Origin: a virus
Virus genome (UHGV): UHGV-0068935
Direction: 5' to 3' (one strand)
DNA length: 34,543 nt
Shown: one piece after another, positions 17,496-23,628 of the stretch
How positions within the stretch are numbered: position 1 is the first letter of the stretch
Layout of the letters: every line of letters starts with the position of its first letter
Program-made: the position numbers and the translations under genes
Notes under the pieces: model-generated
Database searches by the model: none
Told to the model about the DNA's origin: nothing
The model's input: only the letters and a program-made list of their open reading frames with translations

Positions 17496-18641
17496 GTGAG
17501 CTGGCCGAATGTAACCGTAAGCCATCAGAACCGTTTCAACGGTGCCACCCGTGAAGTGGAGCGCACGCTGCTTTTTGTGGGCTATGGCAAAAAGAACACA
17601 GGTAACACCCTTTCCGTCTCCCCTGAGACCGACCTGGACGACGTGCTGGGACCGGATGAAAGCCTGCTTAAATCCACGCTTACCGCCGCAATCGCCAACG
17701 GTGGCCAGAACTGGTTTGCCTATGTTCACGTTCTGTCTGAACCCAAACCCCCGGCACCGGAGGGCGGCGACGCTAACGCCGCATGGGTGGACGCGGTGAA
17801 AAAAGCGCAGACCATTGCTTCTGCCGAGGGCGTGGTGATTGCCATTGACATCACGGCCAAAGATGCCGTTAACCGCGCCACCGAAACCCGCGCCCTGCTT
17901 CAGTCCGCTTATGGCCGTTTTGTCTGGTTCATGCTGTGCGTGGCCGGACCGGGCAAGGATGAGGCATGGGCGGCATACGTCACCCGCATCAGTGCCATAC
18001 AGGACGGCGTGGCAGCACCTGGCGTGATGGTGGTTCCCCGCTTATGGGGAAATGAGCCCGGCGTACTGGCGGGCCGTCTCTGTAATCCTTCCGTCACCGT
18101 TGCGGACAGTCCGGCACGTGTGGCAACCGGTGCCCTGGTGGCGATGGGTAACGATGAGATCCCGCAGGACGGCAAGAAACAGCCCCTTGAGCTGGCCACG
18201 CTGCGCTCGCTGGAAGGCAAACGCTTCAGCGTGCCCATGTGGTATCACGATTTCGACGGGCTCTACTGGTCAGACGGACGCACCCTTGATGTGGAGGGGG
18301 GAGATTACCAGGTCATCGAAAACGTGCGCGTGGTGGATAAAGTCTCCCGCCGTGTACGTCTGCGCGCCATTGCCCGCCTTGCGGATCGCGCACTCAACAG
18401 CACACCGGGCAGCATTGCCGCCAGCCAGACATATTTCAGCCGCACGCTGCGTGAAATGGCGCTCGCCACGGAGATTAACGGCGTACCGTTCCCCGGCGAG
18501 GTTAAACCGCCACAGGACGGGGATATCACCATCGTCTGGACCAGCAGTACACACGTGCAGATTTACATTGTGGTACGCCCCTACGAGAGCGCAAAAGCCA
18601 TTGGCGTAAGTATTGAACTCGACACAGCACTGGAGATCTGA
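17496..18641 (+). CDS. Putative tail sheath protein (non-P2 type)
   Basis: 381 aa, GTG start with AAGGAG RBS, directly upstream of tube-like gene; no similarity to P2 FI noted. Confidence 0.4.
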   Translation: MSWPNVTVSHQNRFNGATREVERTLLFVGYGKKNTGNTLSVSPETDLDDVLGPDESLLKSTLTAAIANGGQNWFAYVHVLSEPKPPAPEGGDANAAWVDAVKKAQTIASAEGVVIAIDITAKDAVNRATETRALLQSAYGRFVWFMLCVAGPGKDEAWAAYVTRISAIQDGVAAPGVMVVPRLWGNEPGVLAGRLCNPSVTVADSPARVATGALVAMGNDEIPQDGKKQPLELATLRSLEGKRFSVPMWYHDFDGLYWSDGRTLDVEGGDYQVIENVRVVDKVSRRVRLRAIARLADRALNSTPGSIAASQTYFSRTLREMALATEINGVPFPGEVKPPQDGDITIVWTSSTHVQIYIVVRPYESAKAIGVSIELDTALEI

Positions 18642-18642
18642 C

Positions 18643-19104
18643 ATGGCCGGAAATGAACGTATCAGCGGCGGCGCGTTTGATATCAACTACGACGGGATCA
18701 TGATCCACGTGGAAAGCGCCACCGTCACCATCACCGACAACAGCGCCGTGGCACAGACGCGCGGCGTGCCGAACGGCTACACCCGTGGTTCCGTTTCTGC
18801 CGATGTGGAGGTGGAAGTCGACGCGCAGAACTTTAAAAAGTTTGGTGCCGTGGCCCGCTCTGCGGGGTCGTGGCGTGCCATTCCTGAAAAGGATTTTCTC
18901 TTTTATGCCAACAACGGCAGCGAGGAGGAAAAAATCGAGGTATTCGGCTGCGTCCCCATGTTGTCGGACGTGGTGAACATCAGCGCAGGTGAAGCCGGAA
19001 AGACCACGAAAAAAATCAAGTTCATGGTCACAAGCCCGGACTTTATCAGCATTGACGGCGTGCCCTACCTGTCAGCCCGTGACACCCGCGATCTGAAGGG
19101 GTGA
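18643..19104 (+). CDS. Putative tail tube protein
   Basis: About 153 aa, beta-rich, follows the sheath-like gene; GGAG RBS. Confidence 0.4.
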   Translation: MAGNERISGGAFDINYDGIMIHVESATVTITDNSAVAQTRGVPNGYTRGSVSADVEVEVDAQNFKKFGAVARSAGSWRAIPEKDFLFYANNGSEEEKIEVFGCVPMLSDVVNISAGEAGKTTKKIKFMVTSPDFISIDGVPYLSARDTRDLKG

Positions 19105-19108
19105 TGCC

Positions 19109-19414
19109 ATGCCGGACGGTCAGACTTCACTCCTGGCAAAACTGATTATCATCGGTGCTGCCATCGGGCTGGGGCGTCTCATGGTGAGCCGCGATCGCAT
19201 CACAGCCCGTCTGCTTATCGGGCGAATGATTATGGGCTCTGCCGTGGCACCGGTTGCCGCCATTCCGCTGTTTAAATTTCCGGACATGCCGGAGCTGGTT
19301 GTGGTCGGTCTGGCGTGCGCGCTGGGCATTATGGGCAGCGCCTTTATTGAAGAATGCTTTTGCCGTCTGGCAGACCGCTACCTGAAGCAGAAGGAACGCA
19401 GAAATGACCCATAA
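19109..19414 (+). CDS. Putative holin / small membrane protein (101 aa, multiple TM segments)
   Basis: Hydrophobic segments LLAKLIIIGAAIGLG, IMGSAVAPVAAIPLF and LVVVGLACALGIMGSAFI; located upstream of the endolysin. Confidence 0.4.
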   Translation: MPDGQTSLLAKLIIIGAAIGLGRLMVSRDRITARLLIGRMIMGSAVAPVAAIPLFKFPDMPELVVVGLACALGIMGSAFIEECFCRLADRYLKQKERRNDP

Positions 19415-20156
19415 GCCTTACATTTCGCCTTTCCTGAGCCTGTATCACGCGCAGGCGCATGACGTTCTGCGAATGCTGCCGGAAAACAGTGTGGACGCGC
19501 TCATCACAGACCCGCCATACAGTTCAGGTGCCACACACAAGGCGGGGCGGACATGCCAGGGCAGCCACGCCAAATACATCAACGATGAAGATCTTCACCG
19601 CTTTGAAGGCTTCGAAGGCGAGAACATGGACGCCCGTTCATGGGAATACTGGACGCATCTGTGGATGACACAGGCATGGCGCACGGTACGACCCGGTGGT
19701 TACGCCCTGGTCTTCACCGACTGGCGGCAGTTGCCCGCGCTGACGGACGCATTCCAGGCCGCCGGTTTTACCTGGCGGGGGATCGTGGCATGGAACAAGG
19801 GACGGGCCTCAAGAACACCGCATACCGGTTATTTTCGTCACCAGTGCGAATATGTGGTCTGGGGCAGTAAAGGCGCGCTGGGCAAATCCCCTTCCGGGCC
19901 GTTCGACGGCTGCATCACGCACCACACACGCCCACAGGAGAAACAGCACCCGACAGGTAAACCGGAATCGTTGATGAATGAGCTTGTGCGCGTGTGTGAA
20001 CCCGGAGGGCTGATCCTCGATCCGTTTATGGGGTCCGGCACCACGGGCGTGGCCGCCCTTCGCCGGGGCTGCCGTTTTACGGGTATTGAACTGAACGCCC
20101 ACTATTTCAGCGTGGCACAGGCGCGCCTTACGGGGACGGAACAGAGGAGTGACTGA
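19404..20156 (+). CDS. Orphan DNA methyltransferase (N6-adenine or N4-cytosine, beta class)
   Basis: DPPY catalytic motif near the N-terminus (ITDPPYSS) and FMGSGTTGVAA AdoMet-binding motif near the C-terminus. Confidence 0.8.
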   Translation: MTHKPYISPFLSLYHAQAHDVLRMLPENSVDALITDPPYSSGATHKAGRTCQGSHAKYINDEDLHRFEGFEGENMDARSWEYWTHLWMTQAWRTVRPGGYALVFTDWRQLPALTDAFQAAGFTWRGIVAWNKGRASRTPHTGYFRHQCEYVVWGSKGALGKSPSGPFDGCITHHTRPQEKQHPTGKPESLMNELVRVCEPGGLILDPFMGSGTTGVAALRRGCRFTGIELNAHYFSVAQARLTGTEQRSD

Positions 20157-20494
20157 TGAAACTGAGCGAAAAACAACAACTGTTTGCCGTCATGATTGCC
20201 GATCTCATCCACTGGGCACAGGAGCACGGCTATCGCCTGACCTTCGGCGAGGCATACCGCACGCCGGAGCAGGCCGCACTGAATGCGAAAAGCGGAAAAG
20301 GCATTCGCAACAGCCTTCACACGCTGCGCCTCGCGGTGGACTTCAACCTGTTCATTAACGGCAAATACCAGGCCGACACCGACGCCTACAGGCCGCTGGG
20401 GGAATACTGGGAATCCATCGGCGGCACATGGGGCGGACGCTTCAGCCGGGCAGACGGCAATCATTTCAGCCTTGAGCACAACGGGATGAAATGA
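20156..20494 (+). CDS. Endolysin, M15-family zinc peptidase
   Basis: Zn-ligand pattern SLHTLRLAVDFN ... DGNHFSLEH typical of M15 peptidases; ATGA overlap; followed by spanins. Confidence 0.7.
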   Translation: MKLSEKQQLFAVMIADLIHWAQEHGYRLTFGEAYRTPEQAALNAKSGKGIRNSLHTLRLAVDFNLFINGKYQADTDAYRPLGEYWESIGGTWGGRFSRADGNHFSLEHNGMK

Positions 20495-20877
20495 TGAAAC
20501 AGCTGGCGGGCTGCCTGGTGATCCTCTTTGCCGCCATGTGGGCAGGCTGGCTGGCCCATGACTGGCATGACGCCAGGGTGGCACTTGCCGAACAGGAAGC
20601 CATGGAAGCCACGCGACGGGCGGTGACAGAAGCCGGGCAGCAGTCCGCCCGCATACTGGAAAAACGGCTGGAGGCGTTAAAGGGCAATGAAATTCACACT
20701 GAACGCGTTATTCACACGGAAACCGTCCGCCCGGTATTCCGCAATGTGTGCGCTACTGATGATTACGTCCGGCTGTTCAACGCCCGTGCTGAAGCCGCTG
20801 AACGTACCCTGGCAGGAAAACCAGCTGACGGAATGCCCGAAGACACTGCCGAGACTGGCAGGCCCGACGGGCGCTGA
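20491..20877 (+). CDS. i-spanin (Rz-like)
   Basis: N-terminal TM helix (LAGCLVILFAAMWAGWLA) followed by charged coiled-coil region; directly after endolysin. Confidence 0.55.
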   Translation: MMKQLAGCLVILFAAMWAGWLAHDWHDARVALAEQEAMEATRRAVTEAGQQSARILEKRLEALKGNEIHTERVIHTETVRPVFRNVCATDDYVRLFNARAEAAERTLAGKPADGMPEDTAETGRPDGR

Positions 20878-20980
20878 TTTTGATGCGGCACTGCGAACCC
20901 TCACGAGCCGCTACACCGAATGCGCCGCCAGGCATAACAGCCTGGTGGAAACCATACGAAACACGGAGAAACTGCAATGA
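20744..20980 (+). CDS. o-spanin (Rz1-like lipoprotein), overlapping the end of the i-spanin gene in another frame
   Basis: Lipobox-like LMITSGC after internal Met; extends past the i-spanin stop. Confidence 0.45.
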   Translation: MCALLMITSGCSTPVLKPLNVPWQENQLTECPKTLPRLAGPTGADFDAALRTLTSRYTECAARHNSLVETIRNTEKLQ

Positions 20981-21252
20981 CCACGAAGAACACCGGCACC
21001 ATCATCCTGTCCGTTGCGGGCGTAACCCTGAGCTTTGAACCGAACAAAACGGCATTTAACAACCTCATCAACGAAATCACGATGACCAACAAGGTGGCGC
21101 CGATGAGCACCTATCTTAACCGCATCGTGACGCCTGCCAGCCGCGACGCACTGGCTGACCTGATTGCGCGTTATCCGGGCTGTGAGATGCAGATCGTCGA
21201 GAAGATTAACGAGGTTTACTCCCCGAAACTGGAGATTGAGTTAAAAAACTGA
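20977..21252 (+). CDS. Tail assembly chaperone (gpE-like, 91 aa)
   Basis: 91 aa, same size as P2 E, immediately upstream of tape measure; ends in slippery heptamer A_AAA_AAC. Confidence 0.55.
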   Translation: MTTKNTGTIILSVAGVTLSFEPNKTAFNNLINEITMTNKVAPMSTYLNRIVTPASRDALADLIARYPGCEMQIVEKINEVYSPKLEIELKN

Positions 21253-21440
21253 CCGCGCGGGTCGAAAGCATCCGCCGCAATCCCCTTGAGCAGTATCTGG
21301 CATTGCGGCGTCACTACCTCCCCGGAGAGCCGGACGACGAAGAGAGCATCGCCCGTGCCATCTGGCTGGATGAATATTTTGCCCGTACCCGCGCCAACAA
21401 GACCGCTGAAGGTATAGCGATCGCATTTAACGGAAGGTGA
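20977..21440 (+). CDS. Predicted -1 frameshift fusion product of the tail chaperone (E+E'-like, about 152 aa)
   Basis: Slippery A_AAA_AAC at 21243..21249; the -1 frame is open for 62 codons and stops 1 nt before the tape-measure ATG. Confidence 0.5.
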
Positions 21441-21441
21441 C

Positions 21442-23628
21442 ATGGCCAGCCAGCTGGATTTCATTATCAATCTGACAGACCAGCTTACCCGCCCGCTGCG
21501 GCAGGTTCAGGAATCCGTGACGGGATTCGCCGAACGCTCGCAGGGCGCGTTCGCGCGTATCGGTGTGGGTGTGGCCGGACTGTGGGGCGTGGCCGAAGGT
21601 ATCCGCGCCGCGATGGATCCGGCGTGGGAGATGCAGAAGGCGCTGGGCGAGCTTGAGGCCAAAGGCGTCGGGGCGCAGGCGCTGACCGCCCTCACCACGC
21701 AGGCCATGAAACTGGGGACCGCATTCGGTCAGTCTTCCACGGAGATCATCCGTTCCGCATGGCATATTCGCGGCGCACTGGACGGACTGAGCGACGGGGA
21801 TTTACCCCGTGTGACGGCAGCAACCAGCACCCTGGCCGTGGCTGCCCGCGTCAGCAGCGAAGAGGCGAGCGGCTACCTTGCCGCCATGGGTGCCCGTTTC
21901 CGCAGTGAGTTTTCTGCCATGGGTGCCGTGGGGTTTGCTGAAGATCTGGCAGGTAAAACCGCGTGGATGGTTCAGCAGTTCGGCGTGGAAATGAGCACCA
22001 TGCAGGAGCTTATTGAGGGCACCAAAAACGCGGGCGCGGATTTTGGCGTCAGCATGGCAGAGCAGTTTGCCATACTGGGCACCCTGTCACGGACCATGGG
22101 CACCGAGGCATCGGGCATCTATGAGGAATTCCTGCGCAGTGCCCCCGCTGCCGCACAAAAAATGGGGATGAGTTTTGTTGATGCCACCGGGAAGATTTTA
22201 CCCATGGGTGACATCCTCGACCGTCTGCAGGCGAGGTTCGGCAGGAACATCGAGGGTAACGTGGCGGCACAACAGGCGCTGGATGACGCCTTCGGCAGTG
22301 GCGCGGACGTGATTAAAAAACTCTGGGGACAGCAGGAAATGCTTAACCGGAGCATATCAGCGCTGGGGCGTAATGACGGCATGAAGCGTGCCACGGAAAT
22401 GGCGGAAGCCATGACTGACCCGTGGGACCGCCTTGTGGCCTCCTTCTACAACATCCGGGCCGCCATCGGTAACGCCCTCTACCCCATTCTCGCACCACTG
22501 GCTGGCCGTTTTGCCGATATCGGCGCGACGTTCGTGCGCTGGCTGAACATGTTCCCGAACATCGCCCGCTGGCTGGGTTACATCACGCTGACCATGCTGG
22601 CGCTGGGCGCAGCCGGTGCGGTCACGAACATCGTGCTGGGTGTGTTCAGCTTCATCATGGAAGGCCATAAGGCCATCATAAAGGGCGCCAGGGCAGCCTG
22701 GAGTCTGTACACGCTTGCACTCACAAAAGTACGCAGTGCCATCATTGCCACCAGTCTTGCCGCGCGTCTGGCGGGCGTGTCGTTTCTGACCATGAGCGCC
22801 CCGGTCCTCCTGGTTGCCGCCGCCATCGCTGCTCTGGTGGTGGTGGCCATTAAGTTCTGGCAGCCCATCAAAGCCTTTATTCGCGGCTTTATTGATGGTT
22901 TTACCAGCGCACTGGACGCCATGAGCCCGGTGACTGCCGCGTTCGGTGACATTGCCCGGGCGCTGGCCCCGGTATGGCAGGGCATAAAAACACTGTTCAG
23001 TGCCTTCTCCGATCTGTTTGCACCGGTACAGCTGACCACGGGACAGATGAACAGCGTCACCCGTGCCGGGGAAACATGCGGTCGCGTGGTGGCCGCAGCG
23101 GTAAGCATGATATCCCCCGCGCTGGAGGTGGTTATCAGCGTGATCAGAACCCTGATCGACATCTTCGCCATCGTCATCAGAGGGTGGCAGGACGTGGTGG
23201 CTGCATTTGACCCGACCGCCCCGGTCGAATCCTTCCGGAAAATGGCGGGGATCATCGGTAACGTCTTCGGGGACTTATGGAACGTCATTAAAAACTCGTT
23301 TAACCGGACGTGGAACTGGCTTGCGGAAAAGCTGAACAAAATCCCCGGTATCAGTATCGACATGAAGCCCACGGAGCAGGTGAACACCATGACGCGGGGC
23401 GCAACAGGCAGCACCGTACCTCCGCAGATTGCAGAAACCGCCGTCCCGGCACTGGCAGGCAACCGCATCAGCGCAGAGCTGCCACCCGGAGGCATACGCA
23501 ACCAGATACGCACGGACACCTCAACCCGTATCGACAACAGCCGGACGTTCGGCAATCTGACAATCAACACGCAGAACCCGATGACGCCGGGGCAACTGGA
23601 TGAATGGACGGAGCTTTACGCGGGATGA
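21442..23628 (+). CDS. Tail tape measure protein (728 aa)
   Basis: Large Ala/Gly-rich protein with hydrophobic central segments, downstream of chaperone frameshift pair. Confidence 0.8.
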   Translation: MASQLDFIINLTDQLTRPLRQVQESVTGFAERSQGAFARIGVGVAGLWGVAEGIRAAMDPAWEMQKALGELEAKGVGAQALTALTTQAMKLGTAFGQSSTEIIRSAWHIRGALDGLSDGDLPRVTAATSTLAVAARVSSEEASGYLAAMGARFRSEFSAMGAVGFAEDLAGKTAWMVQQFGVEMSTMQELIEGTKNAGADFGVSMAEQFAILGTLSRTMGTEASGIYEEFLRSAPAAAQKMGMSFVDATGKILPMGDILDRLQARFGRNIEGNVAAQQALDDAFGSGADVIKKLWGQQEMLNRSISALGRNDGMKRATEMAEAMTDPWDRLVASFYNIRAAIGNALYPILAPLAGRFADIGATFVRWLNMFPNIARWLGYITLTMLALGAAGAVTNIVLGVFSFIMEGHKAIIKGARAAWSLYTLALTKVRSAIIATSLAARLAGVSFLTMSAPVLLVAAAIAALVVVAIKFWQPIKAFIRGFIDGFTSALDAMSPVTAAFGDIARALAPVWQGIKTLFSAFSDLFAPVQLTTGQMNSVTRAGETCGRVVAAAVSMISPALEVVISVIRTLIDIFAIVIRGWQDVVAAFDPTAPVESFRKMAGIIGNVFGDLWNVIKNSFNRTWNWLAEKLNKIPGISIDMKPTEQVNTMTRGATGSTVPPQIAETAVPALAGNRISAELPPGGIRNQIRTDTSTRIDNSRTFGNLTINTQNPMTPGQLDEWTELYAG

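What the first reader, a model, noticed from the sequence alone, without database searches (positions are those of the whole stretch)
21243..21440. Programmed -1 ribosomal frameshift site in the tail assembly chaperone
The 91-aa chaperone ORF ends ...GAG TTA AAA AAC TGA. The heptamer A_AAA_AAC (21243..21249) is a canonical -1 slippery site, and the -1 frame is open for 62 codons, terminating 1 nt before the tape-measure start codon. This mirrors the conserved E/E' (G/GT-type) frameshift of tailed phages and supports the tail-module annotation; the extension is invisible to an ATG-initiated ORF track.
Basis: partly seen in the sequence, partly recalled or inferred. Interest (0 to 1): 0.4.

Follow-up and report, generated by a model that had tools for sequence, protein, structure and literature searches.

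The report
Tail chaperone -1 ribosomal frameshift site
This E. coli prophage makes its tail assembly chaperone in a short and a long form by letting a few ribosomes slip back one base at A_AAA_AAC; this is the ordinary trick of long-tailed phages, but databases do not annotate it for this phage group.

Summary
The 91-aa ORF 20977..21252 (Pfam Phage_TAC_10, E=9e-31) ends GAG TTA AAA AAC TGA. The heptamer A_AAA_AAC (21243..21249) is in X_XXY_YYZ phase. The -1 frame opens only at 21240 and runs 63 sense codons, not 62, to TGA 21438..21440, one base before the tape-measure ATG at 21442.

The extension is a conserved protein domain (Pfam DUF6890, E=4e-21). In 120 related loci, from E. coli prophages to HP1, K139 and phiO18P, the heptamer lies directly against the 0-frame stop: AAAAAAC 115, AAAAAAA 3, AAAAAAG 1. 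The preceding codon always ends in A, even where the residue changes. Protein conservation starts at the first codon after the slip. In 11 of 32 lineages the first 30 extension codons hold no start codon.

The best explanation is a low-level -1 programmed frameshift giving a 154-aa chaperone-DUF6890 fusion. It is the functional analogue of P2 gpE+E' and lambda gpGT, with no detectable sequence homology to P2 E/E'. A downstream hairpin is well supported in a sister clade but not in this window. No fetched GenBank or RefSeq record annotates the slippage. This is a new member of a known kind, of low interest.

The parts
20977..21252 (+). Tail assembly chaperone ORF, 0 frame, 91 aa. This is the short, abundant product.
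   Evidence: Pfam PF10963 Phage_TAC_10 E=9.2e-31 and phrog_1214. RefSeq names the identical protein 'putative phage tail assembly chaperone'. The AlphaFold model has pLDDT 81; its best fold matches are weak (E>=0.007, TM 0.5-0.6), and several of the named BFVD matches are tail assembly chaperones.
21237..21239 (+). TGA in the -1 frame. It is the 5' limit of the region where a shift can give a long product.
   Evidence: the -1 frame opens at 21240, giving a 13-nt overlap with the chaperone ORF.
21243..21249 (+). Slippery heptamer A_AAA_AAC in X_XXY_YYZ phase.
   Evidence: It is identical in 115 of 120 related loci; 4 of the other 5 carry A_AAA_AAA or A_AAA_AAG. The preceding codon is always xxA.
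21250..21252 (+). 0-frame stop codon TGA directly abutting the heptamer. It is a possible pause element.
   Evidence: A stop follows the heptamer directly in the 119 of 120 loci that carry an A-rich heptamer. Its identity varies between TGA, TAA and TAG.
21249..21440 (+). -1 frame extension: 63 sense codons plus TGA. It forms the C-terminal domain of the 154-aa fusion, join(20977..21249,21249..21440).
   Evidence: Pfam PF21830 DUF6890 E=4.3e-21 and phrog_7050 E=4.5e-25. Protein conservation begins at the first codon after the slip, and substitutions concentrate at the third position of the -1 frame. GC by codon position in the -1 frame resembles that of the neighbouring genes.
21303..21440 (+). 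Stretch annotated in RefSeq as a separate 45-aa 'DUF6890 family protein' starting at TTG. I read it as part of the fusion, not as a gene of its own.
   Evidence: One search gives the annotation. The TTG is kept in only 7 of 32 lineages, and 11 of 32 have no ATG/GTG/TTG in the first 30 extension codons.
21257..21275 (+). Candidate hairpin GCGGGUC-GAAA-GcAUCCGC, 7 nt after the heptamer. Its role as a stimulator is not established.
   Evidence: -10.8 kcal/mol, z=-0.75 against shuffles and z=-0.34 against the local background. In the window's clade 93 % of cells are paired but there are no compensatory changes.
21442..23628 (+). Tape-measure protein gene, the presumed binding partner of the chaperone domain.
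   Evidence: Pfam PhageMin_Tail and phrog_28 'tail length tape measure protein'.

Best explanation
[quoted passage not shown] Most ribosomes read 20977..21252 and stop at TGA, giving the 91-aa chaperone. A small fraction slips one base 5' onto AAA (21243-45) and AAA (21246-48). At that moment peptidyl-tRNA-Lys is on AAA (21244-46) and tRNA-Asn is on AAC (21247-49). These ribosomes then read CTG (21249-51) and 62 further codons to TGA 21438-40. The product is a 154-aa fusion, ...EIELKN-LTARVES...NGR, whose C-terminal part is the DUF6890 domain. By analogy with lambda gpG/gpGT and P2 gpE/gpE+E', the shared N-terminal domain coats the tape-measure protein encoded immediately downstream. The rare extension would recruit the tail tube, and the fixed low ratio of the two products would matter for tail assembly. 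Shown here: the anatomy of the site, the nucleotide-level conservation of the heptamer, the coding nature of the extension, and the lack of a conserved start codon for it. Inferred: that the slip occurs, its efficiency, the stimulators (the abutting stop codon and perhaps the hairpin at 21257..21275), and the protein partners.
For: (1) Anatomy: the heptamer is in phase inside a 13-nt overlap and the extension ends 1 nt before the tape-measure ATG. (2) Families: Phage_TAC_10 (E=9e-31) followed by DUF6890 (E=4e-21), with phrog_1214 and phrog_7050. (3) Comparative, sampled with peptide patterns from the N-terminal part of the chaperone and so blind to the shift site: across 120 loci the 7 nt before the stop are AAAAAAC 115, AAAAAAA 3, AAAAAAG 1 and AAAGGTA 1. 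The last still has A_AAG one codon upstream. (4) Nucleotide-level constraint: in 32 lineages below 90 % identity, codon -3 is GTA 26, ATA 5 and TTA 1 (CTA in K139). Elsewhere in the same genes GTA is 15 % of Val codons and ATA 2 % of Ile codons. Codon -2 is AAA in 31 of 32. Other third positions vary freely. (5) The first 18 extension codons are conserved as the peptide LTxRVxAIxxNxLEQYL. Pairwise differences are 5610 at the third codon position against 3230 and 2912 at the first and second. Eleven of 32 lineages have no ATG/GTG/TTG in the first 30 codons. (6) All five fetched E. coli, Salmonella, Aeromonas, Haemophilus and Vibrio phage relatives checked place the extension in the -1 frame, and it abuts or overlaps the tape-measure start in most lineages. 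(7) The architecture equals the annotated P2 E/E' frameshift. (8) A_AAA_AAC is a proven bacterial shift site in IS1 and is shift-prone but weak in E. coli reporters (0.16-0.74 %). P2's U_UUU_UUG is similarly weak (0.12-0.77 %), which fits a low-ratio product (PMC4066793).
Against: There is no direct evidence of the fusion protein. In reporter assays the heptamer alone is barely above background (0.16 %). The hairpin downstream of the window's heptamer is no more stable than shuffled or neighbouring sequence and shows no covariation. No conserved upstream Shine-Dalgarno-like element exists: codon -6 is GAG in 12 and GAA in 17 of 32 lineages. No in-frame fused homologue was found among 50 database hits. 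RefSeq annotates the downstream part as a separate gene.
Confidence: 0.88

Rival explanations
1. The A6 run causes transcriptional slippage. RNA polymerase adds one A, so a fraction of mRNAs encodes the fusion in one frame (junction ...ELKK-LTAR) and the ribosome does not shift.
For: An inserted A would put the extension in frame and would give a fusion of the same length. Three relatives have A7.
Against: From established knowledge (the Atkins et al. 2016 review covers the topic; I did not check the run lengths in it), productive slippage in bacteria uses runs of about 8-9 or more A or T, and six is short. The run never expands beyond 7 in 120 loci. The base after it is C in 115 of 120. The motif is always in X_XXY_YYZ phase with an xxA codon in front. 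Those are features of a ribosomal heptamer and not of a polymerase slippage tract.
Confidence: 0.06
2. The downstream ORF is an independent small gene (the 45-aa 'DUF6890 family protein' starting at TTG 21303), as RefSeq annotates it, and the heptamer is incidental.
For: PGAP and several phage records annotate a separate small ORF. A TTG exists at 21303.
Against: That codon is TTG in only 7 of 32 lineages and is CTG, TTA, CTC and others elsewhere. Annotated starts differ between relatives. Eleven of 32 lineages have no start codon in the first 30 codons. The 18 codons upstream of it are conserved as protein with third-position substitution bias. By eye, no Shine-Dalgarno sequence precedes 21303. 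HP1, K139, YenM_324 and ev015 records leave the region unannotated.
Confidence: 0.03
3. The two-frame arrangement is an artefact or a decaying gene: a sequencing error in the A run, or a pseudogenised single ORF.
For: Homopolymer runs are error-prone in some sequencing chemistries.
Against: The same frame relation holds in 120 independently sequenced loci, including complete genomes and isolated phages. Among 50 database hits, all chaperone homologues end at 89-91 aa.
Confidence: 0.01

Closest known systems
Bacteriophage P2 gpE / gpE+E' (-1 frameshift in the FETUD tail operon)
   Same: Both belong to Peduoviridae. The chaperone is 91 aa in both. A -1 shift near its end adds a 50-60 aa extension (142 aa against 154 aa) that ends at the start of the tape-measure gene. 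Both use heptamers that are weak in E. coli reporters.
   Different: P2 uses T_TTT_TTG six codons before the stop; here it is A_AAA_AAC flush with the stop. The Pfam families differ (Phage_TAC_7 + Phage_P2_GpE against Phage_TAC_10 + DUF6890). BLASTP gives E=15 and hhalign gives a probability below 1 %. In P2 gene E directly follows the tube gene FII; here a lysis cassette and a methyltransferase lie between.
Lambda gpG / gpGT and the conserved tail-chaperone frameshift of long-tailed phages (Xu, Hendrix and Duda 2004, as summarised in PMC5009743)
   Same: Two overlapping ORFs lie just upstream of the tape-measure gene. [quoted passage not shown] The model is that the chaperone domain binds the tape measure and the extension recruits the tube protein.
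   Different: The heptamer is G_GGA_AAG in lambda. Lambda is a siphovirus. There is no sequence relationship. The function of the extension is untested here.
IS1 insA-insB' frameshift
   Same: It uses the identical heptamer A_AAA_AAC, is a proven low-efficiency -1 site in E. coli and has no established stimulator (PMC4066793).
   Different: The product is a transposase, not a chaperone, and the stop codon is not described as abutting the heptamer.
HP1 orf26, K139 orf30 and phiO18P gp36/gp37 loci
   Same: They are true homologues of this site, with the same heptamer-plus-stop design and the same extension domain.
   Different: None of these records annotates the slippage. I could not verify in the held literature whether the early surveys of P2-like phages described it for HP1 or K139.

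Membership tests
Tailed-phage tail assembly chaperone frameshift (lambda G/GT type) | Two overlapping ORFs immediately upstream of the tape-measure gene, within the tail module | tested here: met
   Chaperone 20977..21252, extension to 21440, tape measure from 21442. Sheath and tube genes lie upstream and baseplate genes downstream.
Tailed-phage tail assembly chaperone frameshift (lambda G/GT type) | The second ORF lies in a shifted frame and has no conserved start codon of its own | tested here: met
   It is in the -1 frame in all loci examined. There is no start codon in the first 30 codons in 11 of 32 lineages, and conservation begins at the shift site.
Tailed-phage tail assembly chaperone frameshift (lambda G/GT type) | A conserved slippery sequence in the overlap | tested here: met
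   A_AAA_AAC/A/G in 119 of 120 loci, with synonymous-site constraint on the flanking codon.
Tailed-phage tail assembly chaperone frameshift (lambda G/GT type) | Both products are made at a fixed low ratio, are needed for tail assembly and are absent from virions | not testable with these tools
   This needs protein analysis and genetics.
Canonical -1 PRF signal (heptamer, spacer, downstream RNA structure) | A stable, conserved stem-loop or pseudoknot 5-9 nt 3' of the heptamer | tested here: inconclusive
   Window hairpin 21257..21275: z=-0.75 and z=-0.34, no covariation. The sister Evevirus-like clade has an 8-bp hairpin 8 nt downstream that is 100 % paired, has two covarying pairs and scores z=-4.4. 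Several clades have no hairpin. There is no Rfam match.
Pfam Phage_TAC_10 (PF10963) | Score above the gathering threshold | tested here: met
   106.3 bits against a cut-off of 25.7.
Pfam DUF6890 (PF21830) | Score above the gathering threshold | tested here: met
   74.8 bits against a cut-off of 23.6, on the -1 frame translation.
P2 gpE/gpE' protein families (PF10109 Phage_TAC_7 + PF06528 Phage_P2_GpE) | Detectable sequence homology to P2 E and E' | tested here: not met
   There is no Pfam hit to these families. BLASTP gives E=15. hhalign of 32-sequence profiles against 9- and 10-sequence profiles gives a probability below 1 %.
P2 gpE/gpE' protein families (PF10109 Phage_TAC_7 + PF06528 Phage_P2_GpE) | T_TTT_TTG shift site several codons before the E stop | tested here: not met
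   P2 and most P2-like loci fetched carry a GGT TTT TTG-type T-run (Mannheimia phage has A_GGG_AAA_G). Here the site is A_AAA_AAC, flush with the stop.
Tail assembly chaperone fold | Structural similarity to known chaperones | tested here: inconclusive
   The model has pLDDT 81. The best BFVD and PDB matches have E>=0.007 and TM 0.5-0.6. Several of the named BFVD matches are tail assembly chaperones, but none is significant.

The most novel reading that the evidence does not exclude
In this HP1/K139/phiO18P-type chaperone family the conserved stimulator may be the 0-frame stop codon placed flush against a deliberately weak heptamer, not an RNA structure. Ribosomes pausing at AAC_UGA would slip -1 with peptidyl-tRNA-Asn in the P site. 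The short-to-long product ratio would then be set by termination kinetics, that is by release-factor availability and stop context, and the hairpin would be a lineage-specific add-on. That would be a termination-coupled variant of -1 PRF conserved across a whole phage group.
Probability: 0.2. Interest if true: 0.45.

Novelty: new member of a known kind. Interest (0 to 1): 0.2.

Why it matters
The main value is for annotation. Pfam DUF6890 and phrog_7050, both listed as of unknown function, are the frameshift-encoded C-terminal domain of Phage_TAC_10 chaperones. The separate 'DUF6890 family protein' genes called by PGAP, and the unannotated 190-nt gaps in the HP1, K139 and related phage records, should be one joined CDS with ribosomal slippage. 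The family also offers a clean natural series for studying how weak heptamers are tuned: an invariant A_AAA_AAC directly followed by a stop, with a covarying hairpin in one clade and none in others. The biology itself, a chaperone and its frameshift fusion, is textbook.

Tried and rejected
- Upstream Shine-Dalgarno-like stimulator: GGAG lies 8 nt before the heptamer in the window, but the synonymous position is not conserved (GAG 12, GAA 17 of 32). Rejected as a family feature.
- Single consensus RNA structure for the whole family: the hairpins differ between clades and are absent in several, so I analysed clades separately. RNAalifold on the window's clade gives -4.9 kcal/mol with no covariation.
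- Rfam scan of 20900..21600 at E<=1: no match.
- Homology of DUF6890 to P2 GpE' and of TAC_10 to P2 E: BLASTP and hhalign were negative.
- In-frame fused homologues: none among 50 hits, all of 89-91 aa. That search returns only the best hits and is not exhaustive.
- Literature on this family's frameshift: nothing was found for DUF6890, PF10963, phiO18P, HP1 or K139 combined with frameshift. Xu et al. 2004 and Christie et al. 2002 are not held, so prior description for HP1 or K139 cannot be excluded.
- Fold search of the chaperone model: only weak, non-significant matches.
- My first fusion string (...ELKK-LTAR, used for the Pfam and PHROG scans) assumed re-reading of AAA. After a classical tandem slip the A-site tRNA has already decoded AAC, so the expected junction is ...ELKN-LTAR. 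The length is 154 aa either way and the domain hits are unaffected.

Full report
**Observation**

The window contains a 91-aa ORF at 20977..21252 that ends GAG TTA AAA AAC TGA. AAAAAAC lies at 21243..21249 and is phased A|AAA|AAC, the X_XXY_YYZ arrangement needed for tandem -1 slippage. The -1 frame carries a TGA at 21237..21239, so it opens only at 21240. The two frames therefore overlap by 13 nt, and the heptamer fills most of that overlap.

One base separates this stop from the ATG of a 728-aa ORF at 21442. AAAAAAC is not rare in the window: there are 20 copies on both strands against 7.0 +/- 3.0 in shuffles. Even so, one copy in phase inside a given 13-nt overlap is expected at roughly 1e-3.

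**What the pieces are**

- The 91-aa product matches Pfam Phage_TAC_10 (E=9e-31).
- The -1 translation matches Pfam DUF6890 (E=4e-21) and phrog_7050.
- The next ORF is a tape-measure protein (PhageMin_Tail, phrog_28).
- Upstream lie a DUF2586 sheath-like protein and an HP1 Orf24-type tube protein. Downstream lie DUF2590 and baseplate J.

The DNA is 96-100 % identical to a prophage present in 12 of 5426 complete E. coli genomes. It is related to Peduoviridae of the Irrigatiovirus (SI7), Bielevirus (phiO18P) and Evevirus (ev239) genera. By protein search of the extension it is also related to Haemophilus HP1/HP2, Vibrio K139/Kappa and Pasteurella F108.

RefSeq annotates the chaperone and a separate 45-aa 'DUF6890 family protein' starting at TTG 21303. 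Other records call a small ORF with a different start or leave the 190 nt unannotated. None of the fetched records carries a joined slippage feature.

**Comparative test**

I collected 115 loci: four from annotated records, 80 from IMG/VR and 31 from GTDB genomes. The two collection scans used peptide patterns from the N-terminal part of the chaperone, so the sample is blind to the shift site. Five further phage records were added later.

In all 120 loci the extension is in the -1 frame. The seven bases before the 0-frame stop are AAAAAAC in 115, AAAAAAA in 3 and AAAAAAG in 1. The remaining locus, a Saccharospirillaceae MAG, has GTA AAG GTA TAA. That still offers the shift-prone tetramer A_AAG one codon upstream.

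The stop codon varies (TGA, TAA, TAG) but abuts the heptamer in all 119 loci that carry an A-rich heptamer.

In 32 lineages below 90 % identity, the codon before the Lys codon is GTA (26), ATA (5) or TTA (1), and CTA in K139. So the residue changes but the third base stays A. Elsewhere in the same genes GTA is 15 % of Val codons and ATA 2 % of Ile codons. Neighbouring third positions vary freely. This is selection on the nucleotide sequence and not on the protein.

**The extension is translated from the shift site**

- The first 18 codons after the slip are conserved as LTxRVxAIxxNxLEQYL across the family.
- Pairwise differences number 5610 at the third position of the -1 frame, against 3230 and 2912 at the first and second.
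- The codon homologous to the annotated TTG start is TTG in only 7 of 32 lineages.
- Eleven of 32 lineages have no ATG, GTG or TTG in the first 30 extension codons.
- GC by codon position in the -1 frame (0.65/0.48/0.67) matches the sheath and tape-measure genes; the other two frames do not.
- The extension stop abuts or overlaps the tape-measure start in most lineages.
- A database search with the fusion found only 89-91-aa chaperones and no in-frame fusions. The short product therefore always ends at this stop.

**Mechanism**

The best-supported reading is a low-level -1 programmed ribosomal frameshift. tRNA-Lys on AAA and tRNA-Asn on AAC re-pair on AAA AAA, and translation continues in the -1 frame to give a 154-aa fusion. 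Because the A-site tRNA has already decoded AAC, the expected junction is ...ELKN-LTAR. A Lys at that position would indicate either a P-site slip with an empty A site or transcriptional slippage.

In E. coli reporters A_AAA_AAC gives 0.16 % shifting without a stimulator, 0.19 % with the IS911 stimulator and 0.74 % with the IS3 stimulator. A_AAA_AAG gives 0.29, 4.3 and 39 %. P2's U_UUU_UUG gives 0.12, 0.25 and 0.77 % (PMC4066793 Table S3). A_AAA_AAC is the proven IS1 shift site and has no known stimulator. The near-exclusive retention of the weak C-ending heptamer (115 of 120) fits a requirement for a rare long product, as with the 30:1 gpG:gpGT ratio of lambda (PMC5009743).

**Stimulators**

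For the window itself the evidence for a stimulator is weak. A hairpin at 21257..21275 (GCGGGUC GAAA G c AUCCGC, spacer 7 nt) folds at -10.8 kcal/mol. Its z-score is only -0.75 against shuffles and -0.34 against other windows of the locus. In the window's clade 93 % of cells are paired, with no compensatory change and no excess over shuffles.

In the Evevirus-like sister clade an 8-bp stem 8 nt downstream is paired in all 25 distinct sequences and has two covarying pairs. One of them splits AU 13 / GC 12 and links a synonymous Asn site to a His/Gln-Arg replacement. The stem scores z=-4.4.

Several other clades have no hairpin. An upstream GGAG is not conserved at its synonymous site. The only features shared by almost the whole family are the heptamer and the stop codon flush against it, so the stop may itself be the pause element. 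That is inference only.

**Comparison with known systems**

P2 gpE is also 91 aa. Its annotated -1 shift occurs at GGT TTT TTG six codons before the stop, gpE+E' is 142 aa, and E' overlaps the start of T by 8 nt. The T-run is kept in most of the nine further P2-like loci fetched.

The architecture is therefore the same, but the proteins are not detectably related. P2 hits Phage_TAC_7 and Phage_P2_GpE. BLASTP between the two fusions gives E=15. Profile-profile comparison gives a probability below 1 % for both domains.

An AlphaFold model of the chaperone domain (pLDDT 81) gives only weak fold matches (E>=0.007, TM 0.5-0.6), although several of the named BFVD matches are tail assembly chaperones.

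The site thus works like P2 E/E' and lambda G/GT. It is a member of Phage_TAC_10 plus DUF6890, not of the P2 E/E' protein families.

**Rivals**

- Transcriptional slippage on A6 would give a fusion of the same length. The run is short, never exceeds seven, is followed by C in 115 of 120 loci and is always in heptamer phase.
- Independent initiation at TTG 21303 is contradicted by the missing or variable start codons and by the conserved upstream peptide.
- Sequencing error is excluded by 120 concordant loci.

**Novelty**

The phenomenon is textbook. For this family I found no record annotation and no paper in the held library. The two key surveys, Xu et al. 2004 and Christie et al. 2002, are not held. 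As I recall, they covered P2-like phages including HP1 and K139, so an earlier description cannot be excluded.

I rate the finding a new member of a known kind, interest 0.2. Its practical yield is that DUF6890 and phrog_7050 can be renamed as the frameshift extension of Phage_TAC_10 chaperones.

Noticed in passing
window 20687..20980 (probable start near 20744): An ORF in another frame overlaps the Rz-like spanin gene (20491..20877) and ends in an ATGA overlap with the chaperone start. It contains ...MCALLMITSGC..., which looks like a lipoprotein signal, and weakly matches NCBIfam P2_Rz1 LysC (E=1.2e-3, below the cut-off). It is not annotated in the RefSeq record of the identical prophage. 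It is probably the o-spanin.
   Followed up: partly
window 19109..20980: A lysis cassette (holin-like 19109..19414, M15 peptidase 20156..20494, spanins) and a DNA methyltransferase (19404..20156) sit between the tail tube gene and the chaperone gene. In P2 gene E follows the tube gene FII directly. SI7 and ev239 have the cassette without the methylase, and phiO18P has a larger methylase.
   Followed up: partly
window 21273..21281 with 21302..21310: A perfect 9-bp stem (CGCCGCAAU / AUUGCGGCG) lies 23 nt after the heptamer and dominates the fold of 21250..21310 (z=-1.6). By eye the pairing is absent in the SI7-like relative, so it looks lineage-specific. It is too far downstream for a canonical stimulator. 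A pseudoknot with the proximal hairpin was not examined.
   Followed up: partly
L004, L038-L043, L051-L097 (Evevirus-like loci), 8 nt after the heptamer: A conserved 8-9-bp hairpin CGAGUCC(A/G)...(U/C)GGACUCG shows compensatory changes: A-U 13 and G-C 12 at one pair, and G-C changed to A-U in L063. All cells of the 8 core pairs are paired. It is a good candidate frameshift stimulator in that clade.
   Followed up: yes
L114 1761..1770 (Saccharospirillaceae MAG): This is the only locus without an A-rich heptamer. The chaperone ends TCG GTA AAG GTA TAA, with the extension still in the -1 frame. It may use the A_AAG tetramer one codon before the last sense codon.
   Followed up: no
whole window: AAAAAAC occurs 20 times on both strands against 7.0 +/- 3.0 expected from dinucleotide shuffles. 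The other copies, for example 22315 inside the tape-measure gene, were not examined for phase or alternative frames.
   Followed up: no
window 18613..19104: The longest ORF for the tube protein starts at TTG 18613 and overlaps the sheath gene end by 29 nt. RefSeq starts it at 18643. This is a minor start-codon ambiguity.
   Followed up: no
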